In this document: one piece after another, positions 15,992 to 63,216 of the stretch
Layout: the number at the start of each line of letters is the position of its first letter
Numbering within the stretch: the first letter of the stretch is position 1
Source of the DNA: a virus
Taxonomy: Duplodnaviria > Caudoviricetes
IMG/VR virus record: IMGVR_UViG_3300021431_000012
Coordinates: 1 to 64,000 of that record
DNA length: 64,000 nucleotides
Direction: 5' to 3' (one strand)
Translations under genes and position numbers: made by a program
The notes under the pieces: model-generated
What the model saw: only the letters and a program-made list of their open reading frames with translations
What the model was told of the DNA's origin: nothing
The model's database searches: none

Positions 15992-16804
15992 TTAACTGCA
16001 CACTTGCCCGTAACTAAATGAATTTTTCAAGCCACGAATGTAGCCAGCTAGTTTTATTTGTAGCTTTCTATCATCACCGCTAAACTCCCAACCGCTAAAT
16101 AGCGACGAGTCAACGTCGTTGTAATCACGCATAAGCTGAAGAATCTTTGCACGATTTTCTTTGTGCGTGTTAATACGCCACCACCCGCGCCATGTGGTCG
16201 GGTCATCATTCTTGCATACGTCGGGAAACACATTGCGAAGCACTTTGATAAAAGCCTGCGTGTCGCGGCTATTCTTCTTGCGCTCGTTTTGTGTTTTTGC
16301 ACGCCGTGCTATGATGTCCATTTTCTCTGCTTCGCTTTTTGCTTTCATTGCGGCAACATATTTCTCGTTGCTTGCCCCCAGCTTTTCACCTTTTGCCTTC
16401 AATGCCGATAGTGCTGCGGTCGTGCGTTGTGAACAAAGTTCGCGCTCGTACTGTGCAACACTAGCGAACACACCCAGCAAAAGAGTGTTTATCGTCGGCA
16501 TGTCGCAAAAATGAATTTCGATTCCCGTGTTCACCACCTTAAAGCAAAACTCAACATCACGGGCGAGGCGGTCTAGCTTTGCAATAACAAGCGCACACGC
16601 ATTGCTCCTGCAATATTCTATCGCCGCAGCTAACCCTTTTCTATCGCGGTGCGTACCACTTTCCACGTCGCTAAATTCGGCGGCACACACGCCGCCAGAA
16701 CGCTTGATAAAGTCCTCGCACATGGCTCTTTGTGCCGCCATACCTAAACCACCAGCGCCCTGCTTGCGTGTAGACACGCGAAGGTATATTGCAAATTTTT
16801 TCAT
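15992..16804 (-). CDS. Small serine recombinase (resolvase/invertase family), 270 aa
   Basis: YLRVST catalytic Ser, ESG...R, KLDRLARD and AQYERELCSQRT motifs; start moved to MKKFAI. Confidence 0.9.
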   Translation of the reverse strand: MKKFAIYLRVSTRKQGAGGLGMAAQRAMCEDFIKRSGGVCAAEFSDVESGTHRDRKGLAAAIEYCRSNACALVIAKLDRLARDVEFCFKVVNTGIEIHFCDMPTINTLLLGVFASVAQYERELCSQRTTAALSALKAKGEKLGASNEKYVAAMKAKSEAEKMDIIARRAKTQNERKKNSRDTQAFIKVLRNVFPDVCKNDDPTTWRGWWRINTHKENRAKILQLMRDYNDVDSSLFSGWEFSGDDRKLQIKLAGYIRGLKNSFSYGQVCS

Positions 16805-17037
16805 AATTCTCCTCCGTAAAAACTTCCGTACAATATCACTTTTGTATCTTTGTGACGAAGCCTGCCGCATTTGTTTATGCGTATATTACTCACTCCACAA
16901 AGGCTATAGACATCTGCCGCAGCTTCACGAGCATTTTCCAAATTGTCGCACTTGATTGCATAGTGTTTAGTTTGATAGCCCATTAACCTAAAATAGTTGT
17001 TAGGTCTTATCTGAAATGTTACATATATTTTTTTCAT
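16801..17037 (-). CDS. Hypothetical protein (78 aa)
   Basis: ORF track; ATGA overlap with the recombinase gene. Confidence 0.65.
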   Translation of the reverse strand: MKKIYVTFQIRPNNYFRLMGYQTKHYAIKCDNLENAREAAADVYSLCGVSNIRINKCGRLRHKDTKVILYGSFYGGEL

Positions 17038-18994: not shown

Positions 18995-19561
18995 TTAGCA
19001 GTCACTAAACACGCAGCCCGATTCTTCGTCAAAAGAATAATCAAACCGCATATCGCGCTCAAACGCTTCATAATCAAAATAGCGAGTAAAAAATTCTGGC
19101 ACGCCACTAGATAAGCATTCGATTTGCTCGTTAGCACATTCGTCCGTGAAGTCGCGAAAGCTGTCATACTTCCCCATGAATCTATCCCGCGCCTTTTCAA
19201 GAATATCTTCAAAATCTTTCAGCTCGCAGCCATGAATGCGAACGTACGCCTCAACCATCTCGCGCTCGTCTTCGTCTAGTTCCAGCCAGTCAATAATACG
19301 CTGCACGTCATCCGTACACATGGACTCGCTATAAAACTCTTCGGGAAATCCCTGAAAGTCCTGCATCATAAACTCTGGGTCTGCTTCGTCTTCGTGAAGA
19401 CGGCGACACACCTCAAAAAATTCTTCAGCATCATTGCAGCTTTCGAGGTCTATCCACGCGCCTTCAATGCTGCCCTCGGCATACTTTTTGTACGTCCCAA
19501 CATACAAACCGACGCCATCTGCATCTTGCATCAGGTAGTCGTTTACGTTTTCTTTTTTCAT
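18995..19561 (-). CDS. ardA: ArdA antirestriction protein (DNA mimic, type I R-M inhibitor)
   Basis: LYVGTYKKYAEGSIEGAWIDL, DPEFMMQDFQGFP and YFDYEAFERD motifs; very acidic; start moved to MKKENV (188 aa). Confidence 0.9.
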   Translation of the reverse strand: MKKENVNDYLMQDADGVGLYVGTYKKYAEGSIEGAWIDLESCNDAEEFFEVCRRLHEDEADPEFMMQDFQGFPEEFYSESMCTDDVQRIIDWLELDEDEREMVEAYVRIHGCELKDFEDILEKARDRFMGKYDSFRDFTDECANEQIECLSSGVPEFFTRYFDYEAFERDMRFDYSFDEESGCVFSDC

Positions 19562-19677
19562 AACATAAACCTGTTTAAATTGTTTCGCGGAAATATCTCC
19601 GTTTGTGGGCTGGGCGGCGTTCCTCAACGCCCTGGCTGGTTTTAACAGACGAGCCCTCCTTTGTGTCGCGGCGCGGC

Positions 19678-20160
19678 CTACTTTGCGCTGTTGGCTTCGT
19701 CGCTTTCGTTTGTGTCTTCTTTTGTGTTTTGTGTTAGCATTTCTAGCCACGTGTCACACTCGGCTAGCATGTCGGCCAGCTTTTGTTCGTCATCAATTTC
19801 GTAACGCCGTGCGATACGGGCGCGAATATATTCCGCCTCGTTTTCATAATAACGTACGGCGGACTCGCGTGCTATTTCTATTTCGTCCGCGTCGGTGCAT
19901 TGTGCAATGTCATCAGCCCAAATAATCTCCGAAGTCCACTCCGCACCGTTTGCGGCACAATGTACGAAGCCGACACGCAGACCGTCGATAAAAATGCTAT
20001 CAACCATGCCGAACACGGGCGAGCCCTTTTTGTCGGTGTACTTTGCAAACGTGCCGACGCACCCGCTAAAATACACGGGGGTTTTGTTTGCTTTGGCGTT
20101 GTTTATTGTGTTAATGTTTTCGGCGCAAATTGCGCTTTCATTGTTGCTGTTCGTTTTCAT
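19678..20160 (-). CDS. Hypothetical acidic protein (160 aa)
   Basis: ORF track. Confidence 0.65.
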   Translation of the reverse strand: MKTNSNNESAICAENINTINNAKANKTPVYFSGCVGTFAKYTDKKGSPVFGMVDSIFIDGLRVGFVHCAANGAEWTSEIIWADDIAQCTDADEIEIARESAVRYYENEAEYIRARIARRYEIDDEQKLADMLAECDTWLEMLTQNTKEDTNESDEANSAK

Positions 20161-20287
20161 ATATTAAAGCGTTTCGTTTTGTTCAAAAATAAGCGTGTTT
20201 ATTTGTCGCGTGTTGCGTTGTTTTGGCGAGCACGGGCAACAATGCACCTGCGCCCGTGTCCGCCCGTCTAAACCCAAATAATGCGGG

Positions 20288-21097
20288 TTATTTGCGCCCG
20301 CATTGGTTTAGAATATATTTGCACACCTCCTCGGGCGTGCGGCTTCCGACTCGGCTGATATTCATGATAACGTCGGGCTTCACCTGAAGCTCATTTAGAA
20401 GTTTTCTTTCGACGTCTTCGCTATGAATAGCGTAACCGTAACCGCAAGCAAACGAAACTGGAAGACCTTCGAAAACCTCCATATAACGGAATAGGTGTCT
20501 GCGAAGCATAGACGGGTGAGCCATAGTGTACGCGCATTTTAGAGTATCTAAATGCTGCCTGCTATCTTTAATTAGTACAGCGATTGCTTCTTCTTCGTCG
20601 TTGTGAGATTCGCTCATTTCGCACAACACCACGTTACACCGCACTCCACTAGCTTCTAGTATTAAAACTGCGCCCAAAAATGACGCAGAGGCGTTTACTA
20701 TTCTGTCTGTAGAAACATCTCCGTTTACAGAACAGTTCCAGGCTAGCGTCAAAACTTTAGCGGGCACGCGCTTTTTTCGCGCGTCTATCATGGCGCACGG
20801 AAGGCCAGCGATATAATTTGGCACATGTGCTGCCGCGCCAACGACGTTTGTAAAGATTTTTCTTTGTGGGGCAGTCTTTTTAATTTGCGCCCGCACGCGG
20901 CTCACGCCTGCGGCCTCTATTCGCTTTTGAATATCGGCTGCGCCGTACATTAAAAGCTGTTCGGCCTCCTCGTACGAGCGCGTCTTCGTAAAATCATATG
21001 AGCCAATTATGCTTTTTTCACGAAAACCTGGCTGCGTTGTGCCGTTGTTTAGAAATGCACTAAACTCCGTTATTGATTTAAAATATTTTCCGTACAT
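20288..21097 (-). CDS. vWA-like partner of the AAA ATPase (269 aa)
   Basis: Directly downstream of the MoxR-like ATPase; beta-strand ending in a degenerate MIDAS (NCSVN); AHPSMLRR and GYG motifs; start MYGKYF. Confidence 0.6.
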   Translation of the reverse strand: MYGKYFKSITEFSAFLNNGTTQPGFREKSIIGSYDFTKTRSYEEAEQLLMYGAADIQKRIEAAGVSRVRAQIKKTAPQRKIFTNVVGAAAHVPNYIAGLPCAMIDARKKRVPAKVLTLAWNCSVNGDVSTDRIVNASASFLGAVLILEASGVRCNVVLCEMSESHNDEEEAIAVLIKDSRQHLDTLKCAYTMAHPSMLRRHLFRYMEVFEGLPVSFACGYGYAIHSEDVERKLLNELQVKPDVIMNISRVGSRTPEEVCKYILNQCGRK

Positions 21098-21196
21098 AAT
21101 GCCGTTTATTTTGTTTGTGTTGCGTTGTTTTGTTGTGGTAAATACAACGGGCAAAGCATTATAACTTCGCCCGTTGTGCGTGTTGTGTTGCGTCGC

Positions 21197-22585
21197 TTAC
21201 TTTATCATGCTAGCAACGGCCTCTGCCCACTCATTCTCTTTGTGTTCGAGTGCGCCGTAAATCATGCGTACTTCGTCAGTGTCCAGACCCTTAAACAACC
21301 CGCGACGGAGGGCTGCCTGTTTGTTTTCTTTGCGGGCTTCAAGATAACGCGTGGTACGATAGCTTGCCAGCATTGATACCTTCGTTTTATCAATGGCGCG
21401 GCGGACGTCCTCCATGAAGTCCACGAGCTCGGCGTCGTTGTTTGCCATAACGGGTAACTCCACGCGCCTGTCGTATTGCATGCGATAGAACACGAATCTG
21501 TCGCGGCTTGATGCGTCCACGACGTTTGCTGCCGTGTACTCTAAATCTGCGCCAGTCATGGCCGTGTTGCCCGCTGCAATTACGCGGAAGTTAGGGTGAG
21601 CCTTTTTGTTGCCAACGACGGGAAAATCGAAGGAGCCAGTTGCCATGGCGGTATTTAAAACCGTCGTACATTGTACCTCCGTTCTGTCCCACTCGTCCAA
21701 AAATAGAATGCCGCCCTTCGTGAAGGCGTTGTAGAACGGAGTCGGGACAAAGTTACCTGCGGCGTCCCCGTACCCCTTTACCTCGTGCGCAAATTGCAAC
21801 TGCGAACACTCATAAAAGTCGAGCCCGAGGGCGTCGGCTACCTGTCGCGCTGTGTGCGATTTTCCGCAACCTGCCGCGCCGAACATGTAGGGCGCGAAGC
21901 CTTCGTTGACGTCCTGCACAATATCGGCGAAGTCTGAACACGTCACACCTTCGACGTTATGCTCCTGTCCGTCGGCCGTTGTTACAACAACACGCTGGGC
22001 ATGTGTTGCGGCCGTTGCTTTTAGCTCATCAATAACGGGCTGCAACTTTGCGAACACGGCAGCAACGACGTTCTTCTCCACACCTGCGAACAACGGCGTG
22101 AGTGCGCTGAACGCGTCCACAACGGCCGACTCTGTGGGCGTTGCGGCGGGCACGGGTGCAGCGTCGGCGGGTGTTGTGTCCGTCGTGGGCTGAACGTCTG
22201 CGGCTGGCTTCGTTGCACGCTTGCCACGACGCGGCTTCCGTGCTGGTTTCTCCTCCGTCGGTTTTTCGTCCGTCGGCACGGGCACAACATCGGGCTGTGC
22301 TGGCGTTGCTTCCGTCGGCGTTGCTTCGCTATCGGGCTCGGGCTTCGTTGCTGGCTTCGACGTGCGCGGCTTCCCTCCGCGGCGCGTCGTTAATTCGTAC
22401 CCGTCCATGATACGGAAGGCCTGACAGCCTTCTTCGTCCGTTGTTAACTCAAGAACGTGCGCCCAGTTTTTGATAAAGCGGGCAGTCATATCTTTGCCAG
22501 TGTTTGACTTCACCAGGCCGTTCTTCACTGTTACGTTTGACACATTGAAAACCTCACTCGTCTGAATGTTCTTTAAAGTAATCAT
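21197..22585 (-). CDS. MoxR/CbbQ-type AAA+ ATPase with N-terminal Pro/Ala/Thr-rich linker
   Basis: Walker A GAAGCGKS, Walker B LFLDEWD, FRVIAAGN and DASSRDRF motifs. Confidence 0.85.
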   Translation of the reverse strand: MITLKNIQTSEVFNVSNVTVKNGLVKSNTGKDMTARFIKNWAHVLELTTDEEGCQAFRIMDGYELTTRRGGKPRTSKPATKPEPDSEATPTEATPAQPDVVPVPTDEKPTEEKPARKPRRGKRATKPAADVQPTTDTTPADAAPVPAATPTESAVVDAFSALTPLFAGVEKNVVAAVFAKLQPVIDELKATAATHAQRVVVTTADGQEHNVEGVTCSDFADIVQDVNEGFAPYMFGAAGCGKSHTARQVADALGLDFYECSQLQFAHEVKGYGDAAGNFVPTPFYNAFTKGGILFLDEWDRTEVQCTTVLNTAMATGSFDFPVVGNKKAHPNFRVIAAGNTAMTGADLEYTAANVVDASSRDRFVFYRMQYDRRVELPVMANNDAELVDFMEDVRRAIDKTKVSMLASYRTTRYLEARKENKQAALRRGLFKGLDTDEVRMIYGALEHKENEWAEAVASMIK

Positions 22586-22646
22586 AATTTTTTATTGTTT
22601 TTAAAGTTAGAAAATGTTGTTATTTATTGATTGTTGTTTTGTTTGT

Positions 22647-22958
22647 TCACCATAGCTCGGAATTTATAACTTCTTCCTGAACTGCGATTGATTCCTGATT
22701 GAACAGCTTTTTAAGCGTGTCGCAAAGATTTTTAACTTGCATTTTTTCGGCAAATAACAACTCAATGCGCAGCGTTGTTTCGGTTACAATTTGCCCGTTT
22801 TCGTGCTTGTAAATACCTTTTGCCTCAAAAATTGTGCCTCCGTCAAAATCGGCAGAGATTAAGTTACTAACAATTTTGTAGGCTTCTACTGTCGCAATTT
22901 GTTGCGTTTTTGTATCTTTGTCGTTGAGACCGAGATACAAAGTAAATTTTTTAATCAT
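22647..22958 (-). CDS. DUF3574-like (PII-like fold) protein; first gene of the early operon
   Basis: TLYLG...GGTIFEAKGIYK...ETTLRIE...LKKLFNQESI pattern. Confidence 0.55.
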   Translation of the reverse strand: MIKKFTLYLGLNDKDTKTQQIATVEAYKIVSNLISADFDGGTIFEAKGIYKHENGQIVTETTLRIELLFAEKMQVKNLCDTLKKLFNQESIAVQEEVINSELW

Positions 22959-23075
22959 AATAAAATACGTTTTAAGTTAGAATAAGTTAGAATAAATTTG
23001 CACCATATTCGCGGACTCGCACCGCTTCTGCCCGTCTAAAAATTTACGGGAAAGGGTAGTAAAAACTCCTTCGTT

Positions 23076-23091
23076 TGTTTCACGTGAAACA
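23076..23091. promoter_or_regulatory. parS: parS site 1 (ParB/Spo0J consensus)
   Basis: Perfect palindrome TGTTTCACGTGAAACA. Confidence 0.85.
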
Positions 23092-23199
23092 TAAGAGTTT
23101 TAAATTATTTGGTACGTCTGCCCGCGGCCGTCGGCGTGTCGCGCTTTTCGGTTGACTATCGCCCGCCTGGTGAGTGTGCCATGTACGTGCTGAACTTCG

Positions 23200-23215
23200 T
23201 GTTTCACGTGAAACA
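23200..23215. promoter_or_regulatory. parS: parS site 2
   Basis: Perfect palindrome TGTTTCACGTGAAACA. Confidence 0.85.
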
Positions 23216-23299
23216 AACAAAGAAATTTTCATATAATAAAATAATATGTTTCTTTCGTCGTTTTCCTTTGTGCATTTTGCTACATTCAACACTCTCCAA

Positions 23300-23885
23300 A
23301 ATAACTTTTTTAATCGCTAGAAAATTAAAACGCTTTGTTTCGTTTTAGGTTTTTCGTCTTCGCGAAAAAGCTATTTTTCGCGGCTCTATTTTACTAGAGC
23401 CGAATTTTTCGCTCGCGGCATGCACTCGCCGCCGTTGTTTTTATTCGCGTCTATTAAGCACTCTCGCTGCCGTCTGGCTTCGTCCCGCCGTCGGGCTTCG
23501 GGTGATTTTACAACGAATTCCGCGCCATGTTCACCCCGTACTATCAAACGCCAAACCGTTCTCCCGTTTGGGATACCTCCGCCTGCTGCTATGCCTACTC
23601 TATTACGCTAGTGAGCCTGCTCGGGTCTGCGTCGCGTTGTCTGTGGTCGTTAAATTATCATGTTTTAACCGCCGCCCGTTGGGCGTGCGTTGCGCGTTGT
23701 GTCAATAGGTTACAAAAAGCGGTGAGCCCGTATCAACTCACAAAAACAAATCACTCGCGCCGTGTTCGTTGCCTGGTGTCCTCGTTGCGACGCGTTGCAC
23801 GTCGTTTTAGTCTAAACCCTCGAGGGTGCCTGTCTCGGCGATGCGTCGGGTGTCCCCGTTGCGCTTTGTTGTAACCACTATTTCA
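23300..23885 (-). ncRNA. Candidate long structured leader or ncRNA
   Basis: GC-rich, no credible ORF, directly downstream of a consensus promoter; several hairpins (GGCTCTA/TAGAGCC, GCGAAAAA/TTTTTCGC, GTGAG/CTCAC, CCAAAC/GTTTGG, GGGTGA/TCACCC). Confidence 0.35.
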
Positions 23886-23897
23886 AAGAACACGATG

Positions 23898-23929
23898 CAA
23901 AGGTACGCATTATTTTTTAATCCACCAAA
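23898..23929 (-). promoter_or_regulatory. Consensus Bacteroidota promoter for the early operon
   Basis: TTTG (23929-23926) - N20 - TACCTTTG (23905-23898). Confidence 0.85.
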
Positions 23930-23971
23930 TTTTTTTGCAATTATTTTTTAAATATTTAAAGTACTTTTTTA

Positions 23972-24532
23972 TAACTCGTTGTAAATCAATGAGTTACGAA
24001 TATTATTTATAATTAATCTAAATAAGCGTGTTTAGTGCGTAAAATACACGCTATTATTGCCCGTTGTTTGCATGTTCTTTTATATATACATTATTATATA
24101 TAATATATAGATATAATCTATCATGATATAATATTAATTAAATGTATCTTTTACACTATAAAACAAACGTATAACAAAGAAATATAAATAATAAATATTA
24201 TGATAAATAAAACACGTACATGGCAAACGTCCTATTTATCATAATACCTATTTAATCATGCAAAAAGCGGTTTTCACTGTGTGCGCACACAAAACGGCGA
24301 TTTTTTCGGGTGTAGATATGTTCCCCACAAAACACCCGAAAACGCAACACGGGCAAAACAACGCGTTTTTCGTTTTTCTTGACACTGATAGAATCAAAAC
24401 GCATAACTAATTGAAAATCAATGAGTTATAATGTGCAAAAATAAAAAGGTACGTTAACTCGTTGACTATCAAGTAGTTACAAAAAATCACGCTTTAATAG
24501 ATGTTTATAACTAATTGAAAATCAATAACTTA
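23972..24532. repeat. Four 25-bp imperfect palindromes TAACT..TTG...ATCAA..A(G/C)TTA
   Basis: Copies at 23972-23996, 24404-24428, 24455-24479 and 24508-24532. Confidence 0.8.
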
Positions 24533-24539
24533 AACCCAA

Positions 24540-24785
24540 ATTTATGAAATGTAAATGTTTTTCATATAGCATTATTTAGTGTATATATTACAATATATTA
24601 TAGTAATATTATAGTAATAATATAGAAATACTATTATAGTACTTTTATAGTATATCACAACATATTACTACAGTATATTATATAGTATTACGATAGTAAA
24701 TAACAATCAAATAATAATATTATAATATTATAATCATGATAAAATAATAATAATATAATAGTAATAATATTATATATAATATATA
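24540..24785. other. Very AT-rich low-complexity tract (candidate unwinding or origin element)
   Basis: Almost only A/T with TATTATAGTA-like reiterations; non-coding. Confidence 0.5.
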
Positions 24786-24822
24786 GTGCCTTTACTACTT
24801 TTTGCGAGTTTTGTGTTGTCAT

Positions 24823-24838
24823 TGTTTCACGTGAAACA
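24823..24838. promoter_or_regulatory. parS: parS site 3
   Basis: Perfect palindrome TGTTTCACGTGAAACA. Confidence 0.85.
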
Positions 24839-25213
24839 TTTGTCGATTTTTTGCCCGTCCGCTTTCGTGCGTTGTGTGTTTTCCCGTTGTTGTTTTTGTT
24901 ATATGTTCGTTTGTCAAAATCAAAACCGCGTATTTTGGCCGCGTGTCGGCGTTGTTGGCGGGCGTTGTGTGTGTGGACGCTCGCGACGTTTTAACGCAAC
25001 ACGCGCAAAGAAAACGCCCAAATTTGCGACGTTTTGCCGTGCGGCAGAATCGCGTGAGGAGGTGTCGCTTTTTCGTGCGCTTTATTCAAGAAGGGGGGGC
25101 GGGGGTACGCGCCGCCGCAATGATGTGGTGCAAATCGTCCAATTTTTTCTGAAAAAATTTTTTTGAAAAATTTACGAATTACAAAAATATATTAAATTTC
25201 TAGTAATAATATT

Positions 25214-25242
25214 GCAATTGCTTATTAAATTTATTATATTTG
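25214..25242 (+). promoter_or_regulatory. Rightward Bacteroidota promoter
   Basis: TATATTTG at 25235-25242, 55 nt before the ATG at 25297. Confidence 0.6.
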
Positions 25243-25296
25243 CAAGCTAGTATTTCTTTACTATGCTAGTATAGTGTTAATATATATAGATAATAG

Positions 25297-25752
25297 ATGG
25301 CTGATTTTCAAGTTACAGGTCATATAAGTCGCATTCGTAGGAAGAACGGTGTTATTTGTGTGTACGTTGATGAGTACATGCGTGGTTTTCGTCGTTCTGA
25401 TGGTGAGGTTGTTCAAGAGAAGCATTTGACGTGGTGTTGTGTGTTTAAGAATGCGTTTAGTAATTTTTTGGATAGGATTGGTATTGGTAGTTTAGTGACG
25501 ATAAAGGGCGAGATACTACCTTATGGTCGTAGTATAGATGAAAAGGTTGAAGGATATACGTTATTTGGTCAAGTGATAAATGTTGCTTCTTATCCGAAAT
25601 TTCTTCGTGTTGAGGAAAAGATGGTTCGTGATTCGTCAAAGGTTGTGGATGTGCAATCGTCTGATTCTGTTGTTAGTGATGAGGGTAGTGATAGTGTTAG
25701 TCGCAATATTGTTGTTCCTGACATATATGGGTTTAATGAGCCAGATTTTTAG
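25297..25752 (+). CDS. SSB-like OB-fold protein with acidic C-terminal tail
   Basis: FQVTGHI...TWCCVFK...GSLVTIKGEI pattern; ends GFNEPDF, like the SSB acidic/Phe tip. Confidence 0.55.
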   Translation: MADFQVTGHISRIRRKNGVICVYVDEYMRGFRRSDGEVVQEKHLTWCCVFKNAFSNFLDRIGIGSLVTIKGEILPYGRSIDEKVEGYTLFGQVINVASYPKFLRVEEKMVRDSSKVVDVQSSDSVVSDEGSDSVSRNIVVPDIYGFNEPDF

Positions 25753-25783
25753 TATTTAATTTAAATAGTGATTACTTTGTGTT

Positions 25784-26107
25784 ATGGTAAAATTAGTTGA
25801 TAGCGAATTGGATATTGTTCCCGTTGTGGGGTCTAACAATGATTTATCCAAAGAATTAACGAAGTTGCGTCGTTCAAATACTGCGTTACGCAATGTGAAC
25901 AAGGAGCGTGGCAATCGCATTAGTCTTTTGGAGTCAAAGATTGCCGAGTTGCATGATGAAAAGCGTGCAACGGAGTCATACATTGACACGCTTGTTGATA
26001 GGGCGAAGCATTTTGAGGAGTTGTACGAAAATGTTCTTTGTGAGCTTGAGGATGAGCGTAGTAAGACGTTATGGGCGCGTTTTCGTGAGCGTTTTCTTCC
26101 GTACTAG
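25784..26107 (+). CDS. Coiled-coil protein (107 aa)
   Basis: Long heptad region ending KTLWARFRERF. Confidence 0.7.
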   Translation: MVKLVDSELDIVPVVGSNNDLSKELTKLRRSNTALRNVNKERGNRISLLESKIAELHDEKRATESYIDTLVDRAKHFEELYENVLCELEDERSKTLWARFRERFLPY

Positions 26108-62814: not shown

Positions 62815-63216
62815 TTAAAATAATTCTGGTTGTTTACTATTTTTTGTTTCCACACCGCCAACTTCGACCAACGTGAATTCAATGCGAGGATTATTCTTGT
62901 CAATAAATTTATTGGCAACAATCTTTACGCAGTTTCGGTCATTCTTTATTGCGTTGCACGTTTGTAGACAGTCAAGCAAGCATTTTAATGAGTTGTCAAG
63001 GTCTGGTTGGTTGGAATGAAAATACACGTCAACATAAAGTTCAAAAAAGCCATTAATATTCTTGTTGCGATACGCTCCGCATTGAAGATAGAACTTTTCT
63101 TCGTATTCTTTTAATGCTTTCGTTTTCGCCAAGCTACCGTGCCCCTTAATAGTGATAATTTTATATTGGTTGGCTTTAGACGGCGCGTTACCCAAAATAA
63201 CTTGTTCGTGTTTCAT
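62815..63216 (-). CDS. rusA: RusA-family Holliday junction resolvase
   Basis: PSKAN, PDLDNSLKCLLDCL, IKNDRNC and NPRIE motifs. Confidence 0.85.
   Translation of the reverse strand: MKHEQVILGNAPSKANQYKIITIKGHGSLAKTKALKEYEEKFYLQCGAYRNKNINGFFELYVDVYFHSNQPDLDNSLKCLLDCLQTCNAIKNDRNCVKIVANKFIDKNNPRIEFTLVEVGGVETKNSKQPELF

What the first reader, a model, noticed from the sequence alone, without database searches (positions are those of the whole stretch)
23076..24838. Three perfect host-type parS centromere sites in a phage with no visible parA/parB
Seen: the identical 16-bp palindrome TGTTTCACGTGAAACA at 23076, 23200 and 24823, all in the non-coding control region and flanking an AT-rich, repeat-bearing tract; I noticed no other copy in the window. 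Established: this matches the chromosomal ParB/Spo0J parS consensus TGTTNCACGTGAAACA, where ParB loads, spreads and recruits ParA/SMC. Inference: the phage recruits the host ParABS-SMC machinery in cis, either to segregate as an extrachromosomal or carrier-state replicon, to position its DNA, or to titrate ParB from the host origin. Two of the sites lie in the transcribed early leader, so ParB spreading could also damp early transcription and act as a lysis/carrier switch.
Basis: partly seen in the sequence, partly recalled or inferred. Interest (0 to 1): 0.82.

Follow-up and report, generated by a model that had tools for sequence, protein, structure and literature searches.

The report
Host centromere sites on gut phage
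A complete 75.7-kb phage of gut or rumen Bacteroidales carries three perfect copies of the bacterial chromosome "centromere" (parS) around its control region but no partition genes, so it most likely borrows the host's ParB protein, a trick already shown for Bacillus phage phi29.

Summary
TGTTTCACGTGAAACA occurs exactly three times (23076, 23200, 24823). These are the only copies in the complete 75,698-bp genome, and all lie in a 2.3-kb ORF-free divergent control region.

- **No phage partition genes.** Six-frame HMM and phmmer searches of the whole genome find no ParB_N, HTH_ParB, ParA/CbiA/AAA_31, ParM-type or tyrosine-integrase gene.
- **Host-type site.** The candidate hosts are Bacteroidales/Prevotellaceae. 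Relatives of the phage are binned with two such MAGs, and both MAGs encode canonical ParA-ParB. In that family, 88 of 121 genomes carry only 1-3 such sites; in the one locus I inspected, the sites lie just after gidA.
- **Conserved position in relatives.** parS or the same natural variants sit at the same place (the leader of the first early gene) in 4 further diverged lineages out of about 25 relatives, although the flanking DNA is unalignable. Close relatives keep the sites exactly.

Best reading: these are orphan loading sites for host ParB that tie the unintegrated phage genome to the host partition system. Binding and function are untested.

The principle is known. phi29 has five Spo0J-bound parS sites, and SGI1 mimics IncC parS. 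This scan has also noted orphan parS on several other phages. I class this as a new variant: a non-sporulating host, with sites clustered around an ori-like, early-promoter region.

The parts
23076..23091 (.). parS1: exact 16-bp chromosomal-type parS, 118 nt upstream of the start codon of the first leftward early gene
23200..23215 (.). parS2: exact parS, 124 bp (start to start) from parS1
24823..24838 (.). parS3: exact parS at the right edge of the AT-rich repeat tract, about 400 nt upstream of the rightward -7 promoter box
   Evidence: kept exactly in relative L244 (86% identical region)
23062..23229 (.). 168-bp module: two 30-nt inverted arms (27/30 complementary), each ending in a parS, around a 108-nt G+C-rich spacer. 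It looks like an inverted duplication of a parS plus its flank. It is not a host repeat.
23898..23929 (-). Bacteroidetes-type promoter (-33 TTTG, -7 TAnnTTTG) reading leftward. It places parS1 and parS2 in a ~930-nt leader.
   Evidence: motif match only; one of 12 full motifs in the genome
23930..24800 (.). AT-rich, repeat-dense tract (28% G+C over 24001-25000). It holds four ~25-bp imperfect palindromes of the form TAACTnnTTG-n5-CAAnnAGTTA (23968-23996, 24400-24428, 24451-24479, 24504-24532). This is the putative replication origin or operator region, and parS2 and parS3 bracket it.
   Evidence: the origin function is inferred
24278..24291 (.). Second palindrome, TGTGTGCGCACACA. Relatives G004 (x3) and G008 (x2) share it in the same intergenic region. 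It is a separate, phage-specific operator candidate.
22647..22958 (-). First leftward early gene (103 aa, DUF3574, weakly SAM-lyase-like). An AAA ATPase and ArdA follow it.
25235..25752 (+). -7 box TATATTTG (25235-25242) and the rightward 151-aa gene (25297-25752) that bounds the control region

Best explanation
The three palindromes are real chromosomal-type parS sites, that is, loading sites for the ParB (Spo0J-family CTP-dependent clamp) of the phage's Bacteroidales host. The phage encodes no ParA or ParB, so the sites act in cis as orphan centromeres.

Proposed mechanism. Host ParB dimers nucleate at the three sites. The sites bracket the early leftward promoter and the AT-rich, iteron-bearing, origin-like tract, so ParB would spread over this ~2-kb control region. 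The ParB-coated phage DNA is then handled by the host ParA-driven partition machinery. An unintegrated phage genome would therefore be positioned and inherited by daughter cells when lytic growth is delayed (a carrier or pseudolysogenic, plasmid-like state). The model is phi29, which uses host Spo0J and its own parS sites to get its genome into the spore.

Likely side effects are damping of early leftward transcription and competition with the host's own 1-3 parS sites.

Shown here: the sites, their host-type identity, the lack of phage par genes, and their retention at one position while the flanks diverge. Inferred: ParB binding, spreading, partition, and any effect on transcription.
For: (1) Each of the three sites matches the parS consensus at 16 of 16 positions, and they are the only copies in the genome.
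(2) The complete genome has no ParB_N, HTH_ParB, AAA_31, CbiA or StbA hit at E<=1 in six frames. phmmer --max with two host ParA/ParB pairs finds nothing significant (ParA/ParB queries E>=0.1).
(3) Host link. The closest cultured relative infects Bacteroides uniformis. Relatives are binned in a Bacteroidales MAG and a Prevotellaceae MAG. Both MAGs have parA-parB with ParB_N+HTH_ParB+ParB_C.
(4) In that host family, 88 of 121 genomes have 1-3 sites at up to 1 mismatch, against 11 genomes (1-2 hits each) for the reversed control. In the one locus I inspected (G135), the two sites lie right after gidA/mnmG.
(5) The variants seen in phage relatives are TGTTCCACGTGAAACA, C/AGTTTCACGTGAAACA and TGTTTCATGTGAAACA. 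The same variants occur in host chromosomes.
(6) Selection. The relative at 95-97% identity keeps all three sites, and the one at 86% keeps parS3 exactly. Four further lineages (G013 x3, G005 x2, G010 x1, G163 x2) have sites in the same intergenic region; in G013, G010 and G163 these lie 100-400 nt upstream of the first early gene. Nothing else in that region aligns. All five sites at up to 1 mismatch in the 21 relatives lie in this region; I calculate about 0.02 expected by chance.
(7) Plasmid-like replication kit: O-like initiator, DnaB-like helicase/primase, beta-clamp, a resolvase-type serine recombinase and no tyrosine integrase.
(8) Precedents: phi29 (PMC2731898; sites re-found) and SGI1 (PMC10954446).
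Against: - No binding or segregation data exist.
- The host is inferred from relatives and MAG binning, not shown.
- parS is absent from about 20 of about 25 relatives with the same genome plan, including the cultured Bacteroides phage C3_41T2LP. It is therefore dispensable for this phage type.
- No carrier state or episomal form is documented for this phage.
If it modifies bases within parS, ParB recognition could be altered.
- In a lytic burst with many genome copies, active partition has no obvious use.
Confidence: 0.5

Rival explanations
1. ParB decoy or titration. During lytic replication, hundreds of phage genomes with three perfect parS each soak up host ParB. This strips it from the host's 1-3 chromosomal sites, disturbs origin segregation and ParA (Soj)-linked control of initiation, and so works as host takeover, not as phage inheritance.
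For: The phage has as many perfect sites as, or more than, a whole host chromosome. SGI1 uses amplified parS copies to destabilise its helper plasmid (PMC10954446). The sites lie in the early region near the putative origin, so their copy number rises early.
Against: Nothing shows that ParB loss benefits a phage. parAB is dispensable in many bacteria. Clustering of the sites at one conserved position in the early leader is not needed for a pure sink; phi29's sites are dispersed.
Confidence: 0.15
2. Regulatory use only. Host ParB loaded at parS1 and parS2 in the early leader, and at parS3 beyond the origin-like tract, acts as a silencer or roadblock. This makes early anti-restriction gene expression and origin firing depend on host ParB/CTP state, giving a repressor-free lysis/dormancy switch.
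For: parS1 and parS2 lie between a Bacteroidetes-type promoter (23929->23898) and the first early gene. In G013, G010 and G163 the sites also lie 100-400 nt upstream of the first early gene. ParB-dependent repression near parS is known for P. aeruginosa ParB (title and abstract listed).
Against: The promoter is only a motif match. Silencing by chromosomal ParB is usually weak. parS3 lies outside the leader.
Confidence: 0.12
3. ParB is recruited to load a condensin-like or other ParB-dependent factor that organises, individualises or protects replicating phage DNA, for example for packaging or against nucleases.
For: ParB-parS is the loading site for Smc-ScpAB in many bacteria (summarised in PMC10197239). 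Co-occurrence with a RusA resolvase in all five parS+ lineages hints at a link to processing of replication or recombination intermediates.
Against: No homologues of known condensins were found in the two Bacteroidetes species studied (PMC10197239). The RusA link may be shared ancestry only: its nucleotide identity is about 72%, like the rest of the genome.
Confidence: 0.08
4. The palindrome is the operator of an unrecognised phage-encoded DNA-binding protein and only coincides with parS.
For: The region holds other phage-specific palindromes (TGTGTGCGCACACA and the four iteron-like repeats). Many phage proteins here have no known family.
Against: A 16/16 match of a palindromic operator to parS has a chance of about 4^-8. 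The variants in relatives are the natural host variants. Among G000 ORFs of at least 50 aa compared with 10 relatives, the only gene whose presence tracks parS is a RusA resolvase, which is not a sequence-specific regulator. parS is at least 60-fold enriched over a reversed control in viral contigs of many G+C classes.
Confidence: 0.06
5. Neutral passenger: host DNA or a small host repeat element that was captured and duplicated, with no function.
For: parS1 and parS2 look like an inverted duplication of a 30-bp unit. Distribution among relatives is patchy.
Against: The 211-bp module matches host-family genomes only over the parS core, in 4 of 121 genomes. The sites persist exactly while the flanks diverge beyond alignment. 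They recur at the same position in several lineages.
Confidence: 0.04

Closest known systems
Host-type parS sites of virulent Bacillus phages phi29 and Nf (Meijer et al. 2005, as summarised in PMC2731898)
   Same: A phage without parA/parB carries several copies of the host chromosome's parS. Host Spo0J/ParB is implicated in segregating the phage genome, and the phage has no integrase. I re-found four one-mismatch sites and one three-mismatch site in phi29, which fits the five sites the paper reports.
   Different: phi29's sites are one-mismatch variants dispersed along a 19-kb linear protein-primed genome, mostly at gene ends or inside genes. Their shown role is entrapment in the Bacillus spore. 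Here the three sites are perfect and cluster in one 1.8-kb stretch of a non-coding control/origin-like region of a 75.7-kb phage with long tape-measure- and tail-like genes (by synteny with C3_41T2LP). Bacteroidales are not known to form spores (my knowledge), so the pay-off must differ.
SGI1 parS mimicry of IncC plasmids (PMC10954446)
   Same: A mobile element with no partition genes carries copies of another replicon's parS. The sites bind that replicon's ParB, which stabilises the element and competes with the owner.
   Different: SGI1 parasitises a helper plasmid's ParABS, not the chromosome's. It is an integrative mobilisable element, not a phage.
Chromosomal parS stabilising an unstable plasmid through host Soj/Spo0J (summarised in PMC7022226)
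   Same: With chromosomal Par proteins supplied, one parS in cis is enough to give an otherwise unstable replicon active partition.
   Different: Those were engineered test plasmids. Here the arrangement is natural and on a virus.
Phage-plasmid partition cassettes (P1 parABS, N15 sopABC, mycobacteriophage parABS)
   Same: Centromere sites serve extrachromosomal inheritance of a phage genome (my knowledge; context in PMC11652158 and PMC7157519, listed).
   Different: Those phages encode their own ParA and ParB with private centromeres. This phage encodes neither.

Membership tests
Chromosomal-type parS (ParB/Spo0J loading site) | 16-bp palindrome matching TGTTNCACGTGAAACA | tested here: met
   Three 16/16 matches. 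The consensus is as used in PMC10197239.
Chromosomal-type parS (ParB/Spo0J loading site) | A ParB with ParB_N + HTH_ParB domains is present in the same cell and uses this sequence | tested here: inconclusive
   Candidate host MAGs encode canonical ParA-ParB. Their family carries 1-3 such sites per genome; in the one locus inspected they lie after gidA. The actual host of this phage is inferred only.
Chromosomal-type parS (ParB/Spo0J loading site) | Specific binding and CTP-dependent loading of ParB | not testable with these tools
   Needs EMSA or ChIP-seq.
phi29-type orphan host parS on a phage | Host-type parS on a phage genome that has no parA/parB | tested here: met
   The genome is 100% complete with direct terminal repeats (a 127-bp repeat).
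phi29-type orphan host parS on a phage | Host ParB-dependent segregation of the phage genome (into the spore, for phi29) | not testable with these tools
   Bacteroidales are not known to sporulate (my knowledge), so any segregation would be into ordinary daughter cells.
Phage-plasmid ParABS cassette (P1/N15/mycobacteriophage type) | Phage-encoded ParA-type (or ParM/TubZ-type) NTPase and ParB-type centromere binder | tested here: not met
   No AAA_31, CbiA, StbA, ParB_N or HTH_ParB hit at E<=1. phmmer with host ParA/ParB was negative. TubZ was not searched. A weak PHROG 'ParB-like partition nuclease' hit in a DNA methyltransferase covers profile positions 161-213 only, and Pfam shows only N6_N4_Mtase.

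The most novel reading that the evidence does not exclude
Host ParB serves this phage, and many unrelated phages, as a borrowed partition system and surrogate repressor at once. ParB loads at parS sites that bracket the origin and the early promoter, and so both silences and segregates an unintegrated genome. That would give a repressor-free and integrase-free 'episomal lysogeny' in non-sporulating gut anaerobes. Exact parS is at least 60-fold enriched over a reversed control palindrome across IMG/VR, mostly without any ParB gene nearby, which would make this a general and overlooked persistence strategy.
Probability: 0.2. Interest if true: 0.8.

Novelty: new variant of a known kind. Interest (0 to 1): 0.55.

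Why it matters
Many gut Bacteroidales phages persist with their hosts for long periods without classical lysogeny, and the mechanisms are only partly known. A cis-acting site that plugs a phage genome into the host's own chromosome-partition system would be a simple, testable route to such persistence. It would extend the phi29 paradigm from spore entrapment in Firmicutes to ordinary cell division in another phylum.

The survey results point the same way. At least 119 viral contigs carry exact parS, against 2 for the control palindrome. Only 1 of 119 loci has a ParB-like gene, and 16 of 19 larger records have no ParB_N. This suggests the habit is widespread, and that HMM-based phage-plasmid screens, which look only for par genes, miss it.

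Tried and rejected
- **Close DNA relatives in GenBank phages:** none.
- **Single-protein relative searches** with the flanking ATPase and the 151-aa gene found nothing or only near-identical contigs. Profile-based searches were needed.
- **Rfam on 22000-26000:** nothing credible.
- **Closest cultured relative, Bacteroides phage C3_41T2LP:** it has an analogous AT-rich divergent gap but no parS-like site better than 3 mismatches, and none in the gap.
- **A phage-encoded cognate binder, sought through gene presence/absence against parS status:** only a RusA resolvase tracks parS. I rejected it as the binder. No RusA lies near parS in unrelated parS-bearing viral contigs.
- **ParB-like PHROG hit in the 296-aa methyltransferase:** rejected as a ParB domain.
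- **The parS1-spacer-parS2 module as a host MITE-like repeat:** rejected.
- **Host parS next to parB:** not so in this family; the sites lie 0.27-1.3 Mb from parB, and beside gidA in the one locus checked.
- **Livny et al. 2007 (PMC2168934)** is not held, so I could not check it for phage mentions.
- One search was a mistyped query.
- Literature searches for phage-borne host parS by keywords found nothing directly. The phi29 precedent came from earlier notes of this scan, and I then verified it.

Full report
**Observation**

The pattern TGTTTCACGTGAAACA occurs at 23076, 23200 and 24823 with no mismatches. No other match exists at up to 3 mismatches in the window, and none at up to 1 mismatch in the whole genome. 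The window is the first 64 kb of a 75,698-bp IMG/VR virus record that is flagged as having direct terminal repeats and as 100% complete; I found a 127-bp terminal repeat. By my calculation, an exact 16-mer is expected about 1.5e-5 times in 64 kb.

**Anatomy of the region**

- All three sites lie in 22959-25296, a 2.3-kb stretch without credible ORFs.
- To the left, genes run leftward from 22958. They include a 103-aa DUF3574/SAM-lyase-like protein, an AAA ATPase, a phrog_1909 protein and ArdA.
- To the right, a 151-aa gene starts at 25297.
- A full Bacteroidetes-type promoter motif (-33 TTTG, -7 TAnnTTTG) lies on the minus strand at 23929->23898. That places parS1 and parS2 in the distal part of a ~930-nt leader. 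A -7 box at 25235 precedes the rightward gene. These are motif matches only.
- Between parS2 and parS3 lie:
  - that promoter;
  - a 28% G+C tract;
  - four ~25-bp imperfect palindromes, TAACTnnTTG-n5-CAAnnAGTTA;
  - a separate palindrome, TGTGTGCGCACACA, which relatives G004 and G008 share.
- I read this tract as the origin/operator region. That is an inference.
- parS1 and parS2 are the cores of a 30-nt inverted repeat around a 108-nt spacer.

**What the phage is**

- TerL and portal are recognisable.
- The closest GenBank phage is Bacteroides phage C3_41T2LP (host B. uniformis; TerL 54% identical). LoVEphage-type Bacteroides and Phocaeicola phages follow at 22%.
- Hundreds of metagenomic relatives have TerL at 70-81% identity and genomes of 75-87 kb.
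- Two relatives are binned in a Bacteroidales MAG and a Prevotellaceae rumen MAG.
- The genome encodes an O-like initiator, a DnaB-like helicase/primase, a beta-clamp, RecT/RecE, RusA, two DNA methyltransferases and a 292-aa resolvase-type serine recombinase. It has no tyrosine integrase.

**No partition genes**

- Six-frame searches of the complete genome with ParB_N, HTH_ParB, AAA_31, CbiA and StbA_N gave no hit at E<=1, while positive controls responded.
- phmmer --max with ParA and ParB from both MAGs against all stop-to-stop frames of at least 30 aa gave only noise.
- A weak PHROG 'ParB-like partition nuclease' hit sits in a 296-aa methyltransferase. It covers a non-N-terminal part of the profile, and Pfam sees only N6_N4_Mtase there.

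**The site is the host's centromere**

- Both MAGs carry parA-parB operons whose ParB has ParB_N + HTH_ParB + ParB_C.
- In 121 genomes of that family, 88 have 1-3 sites at up to 1 mismatch. The reversed control pattern hits only 11 genomes, with 1-2 hits each.
- In the one complete genome I inspected (G135), the two sites lie directly after the stop codon of gidA/mnmG, a classic origin-proximal gene. Across five genomes the sites lie 0.27-1.3 Mb from parB.
- The phage therefore carries as many perfect sites as, or more than, a whole host chromosome.
- The 211-bp parS1-parS2 module matches host genomes only over the parS core, so it is not a host repeat.

**Conservation**

- A contig 95-97% identical keeps all three sites. 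One that is 86% identical over the region keeps parS3 exactly.
- Among 21 long relatives found through TerL, G013 has three sites (one exact and two abutting TGTTTCACGTGGAACA), G005 has two degenerate sites and G010 has one.
- A further relative, G163, has two sites 115 bp apart.
- All of these sites lie in the homologous divergent intergenic region. In G013, G010 and G163 they sit 100-400 nt upstream of the first leftward gene; in G005 they lie further out.
- The flanks and spacers do not align. None of 22959-25296 aligns by blastn to any of ten fully fetched relatives.
- Every site at up to 1 mismatch in the 21 relatives is in this region.
- The variants are the same ones seen in host chromosomes.
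- On a TerL tree the parS+ phages are scattered. However, all five parS+ lineages share a RusA resolvase (62815-63216, PF05866), and 19 of 20 parS- relatives lack it.
- RusA is about 72% identical at the nucleotide level, like the rest of the genome. I therefore read it as a marker of shared ancestry in a mosaic genome, not as a partner of parS.
- Either way, the sites have been kept for a long time while their surroundings diverged. That is the signature of selection on the 16-mer itself.
- About 20 relatives with the same genome plan lack parS, including C3_41T2LP. The sites are therefore an accessory, not a core, feature.

**Generality**

The reversed palindrome of identical composition hit 2.
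- Thirty-one of the 119 loci have two or more sites at up to 1 mismatch. Several unrelated families hold 4-6 sites, and overall G+C ranges from 0.32 to 0.72.
- Only one locus has a ParB-like gene. Of 19 larger records, 16 have no ParB_N hit at E<=0.01.
- Earlier notes of this scan report orphan parS on several other phages, so this is a repeat finding on new DNA.

**What is known**

- phi29 'contains five parS sites' and exploits the host segregation machinery, through Spo0J, for spore entrapment (PMC2731898).
- I re-found four one-mismatch sites and one three-mismatch site dispersed along phi29.
- SGI1 carries mimics of IncC parS. They bind the plasmid's ParB, stabilise SGI1 and displace the plasmid (PMC10954446).
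- Chromosomal par loci plus a single parS stabilise unstable plasmids (PMC7022226).
- Keyword searches found no paper on host-type parS in Bacteroidales phages.
No known condensin homologues were found in the two Bacteroidetes species studied by Hi-C (PMC10197239).
- Episomal or carrier persistence is reported for crAss-like Bacteroides phages (summarised in bioRxiv 10.1101/2024.12.31.630880). This makes a partition role plausible.

**Verdict**

I put the chance that these are selected, host-type ParB loading sites on a phage with no par genes at about 0.8.
- What they are for is open: inheritance or positioning of an unintegrated genome (my best guess), ParB titration, early-gene silencing, or a mix of these.
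- Because phi29 and SGI1 establish the principle, I class this as a new variant of a known kind. It involves a different phylum and a non-sporulating host, with perfect sites clustered around an origin-like and early-promoter region. Interest is moderate.

Noticed in passing
window 62815-63216 (-): A 133-aa RusA Holliday-junction resolvase (PF05866, E 4.9e-10) is present in all five parS+ lineages (G000, G013, G005, G010, G163; 75-92% aa identity). It is present in only 1 of 20 parS- relatives (G164). Nucleotide identity is about 72%, so it is old, not recently exchanged. It is probably a lineage marker, but a functional link is not excluded.
   Followed up: partly
IMG/VR loci L004-L122 (for example L009/L023/L108, L024/L063, L016, L049): Exact parS occurs on at least 119 viral contigs, against 2 for the reversed control palindrome. 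Several unrelated contig families carry clusters of 4-6 sites. Only 1 of 119 loci has a ParB-like gene, and 16 of 19 larger records have no ParB_N.
   Followed up: partly
window 24278-24291; G004 16044, 16204, 16242; L222 (G008) 3182, 3388: A second palindrome, TGTGTGCGCACACA, sits in the same intergenic region of G000 and two relatives. It is a candidate operator for a phage protein shared by these three.
   Followed up: no
window 23968-23996, 24400-24428, 24451-24479, 24504-24532: Four ~25-bp imperfect palindromes (TAACTnnTTG-n5-CAAnnAGTTA) lie in the AT-rich tract. They are specific to this phage among ten relatives and are candidate iterons for the O-like initiator (genome 69349-70428).
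   Followed up: partly
window 15992-16870 (-): A 292-aa serine recombinase with a Resolvase N-terminal domain (PF00239, E 1.6e-23) is conserved in most relatives. Its size and type fit a resolvase or invertase, not a large serine integrase, so it may resolve genome multimers.
   Followed up: no
window 18995-22958 (-): The early leftward operon opens with likely anti-restriction functions: a DUF3574/SAM-lyase-like 103-aa protein, a 462-aa AAA_5 ATPase also found in Staphylococcus Twort-like phages (32% identity), and ArdA (PF07275, E 8.8e-27).
   Followed up: no
L237 1501-1548 (host-family genome G135, 1686906-1686953): In this host-family genome the two chromosomal parS sites lie directly after the gidA/mnmG stop codon. 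Across five genomes of the family, parS lies 0.27-1.3 Mb from parB, unlike the parB-proximal sites of Firmicutes.
   Followed up: partly
genome 70610-71500 (-), L284 8611-9501: A 296-aa N6_N4 DNA methyltransferase gives a weak PHROG hit to a 'ParB-like partition nuclease' family (residues 15-67). The hit covers a non-ParB part of that profile, so it is not a ParB.
   Followed up: yes
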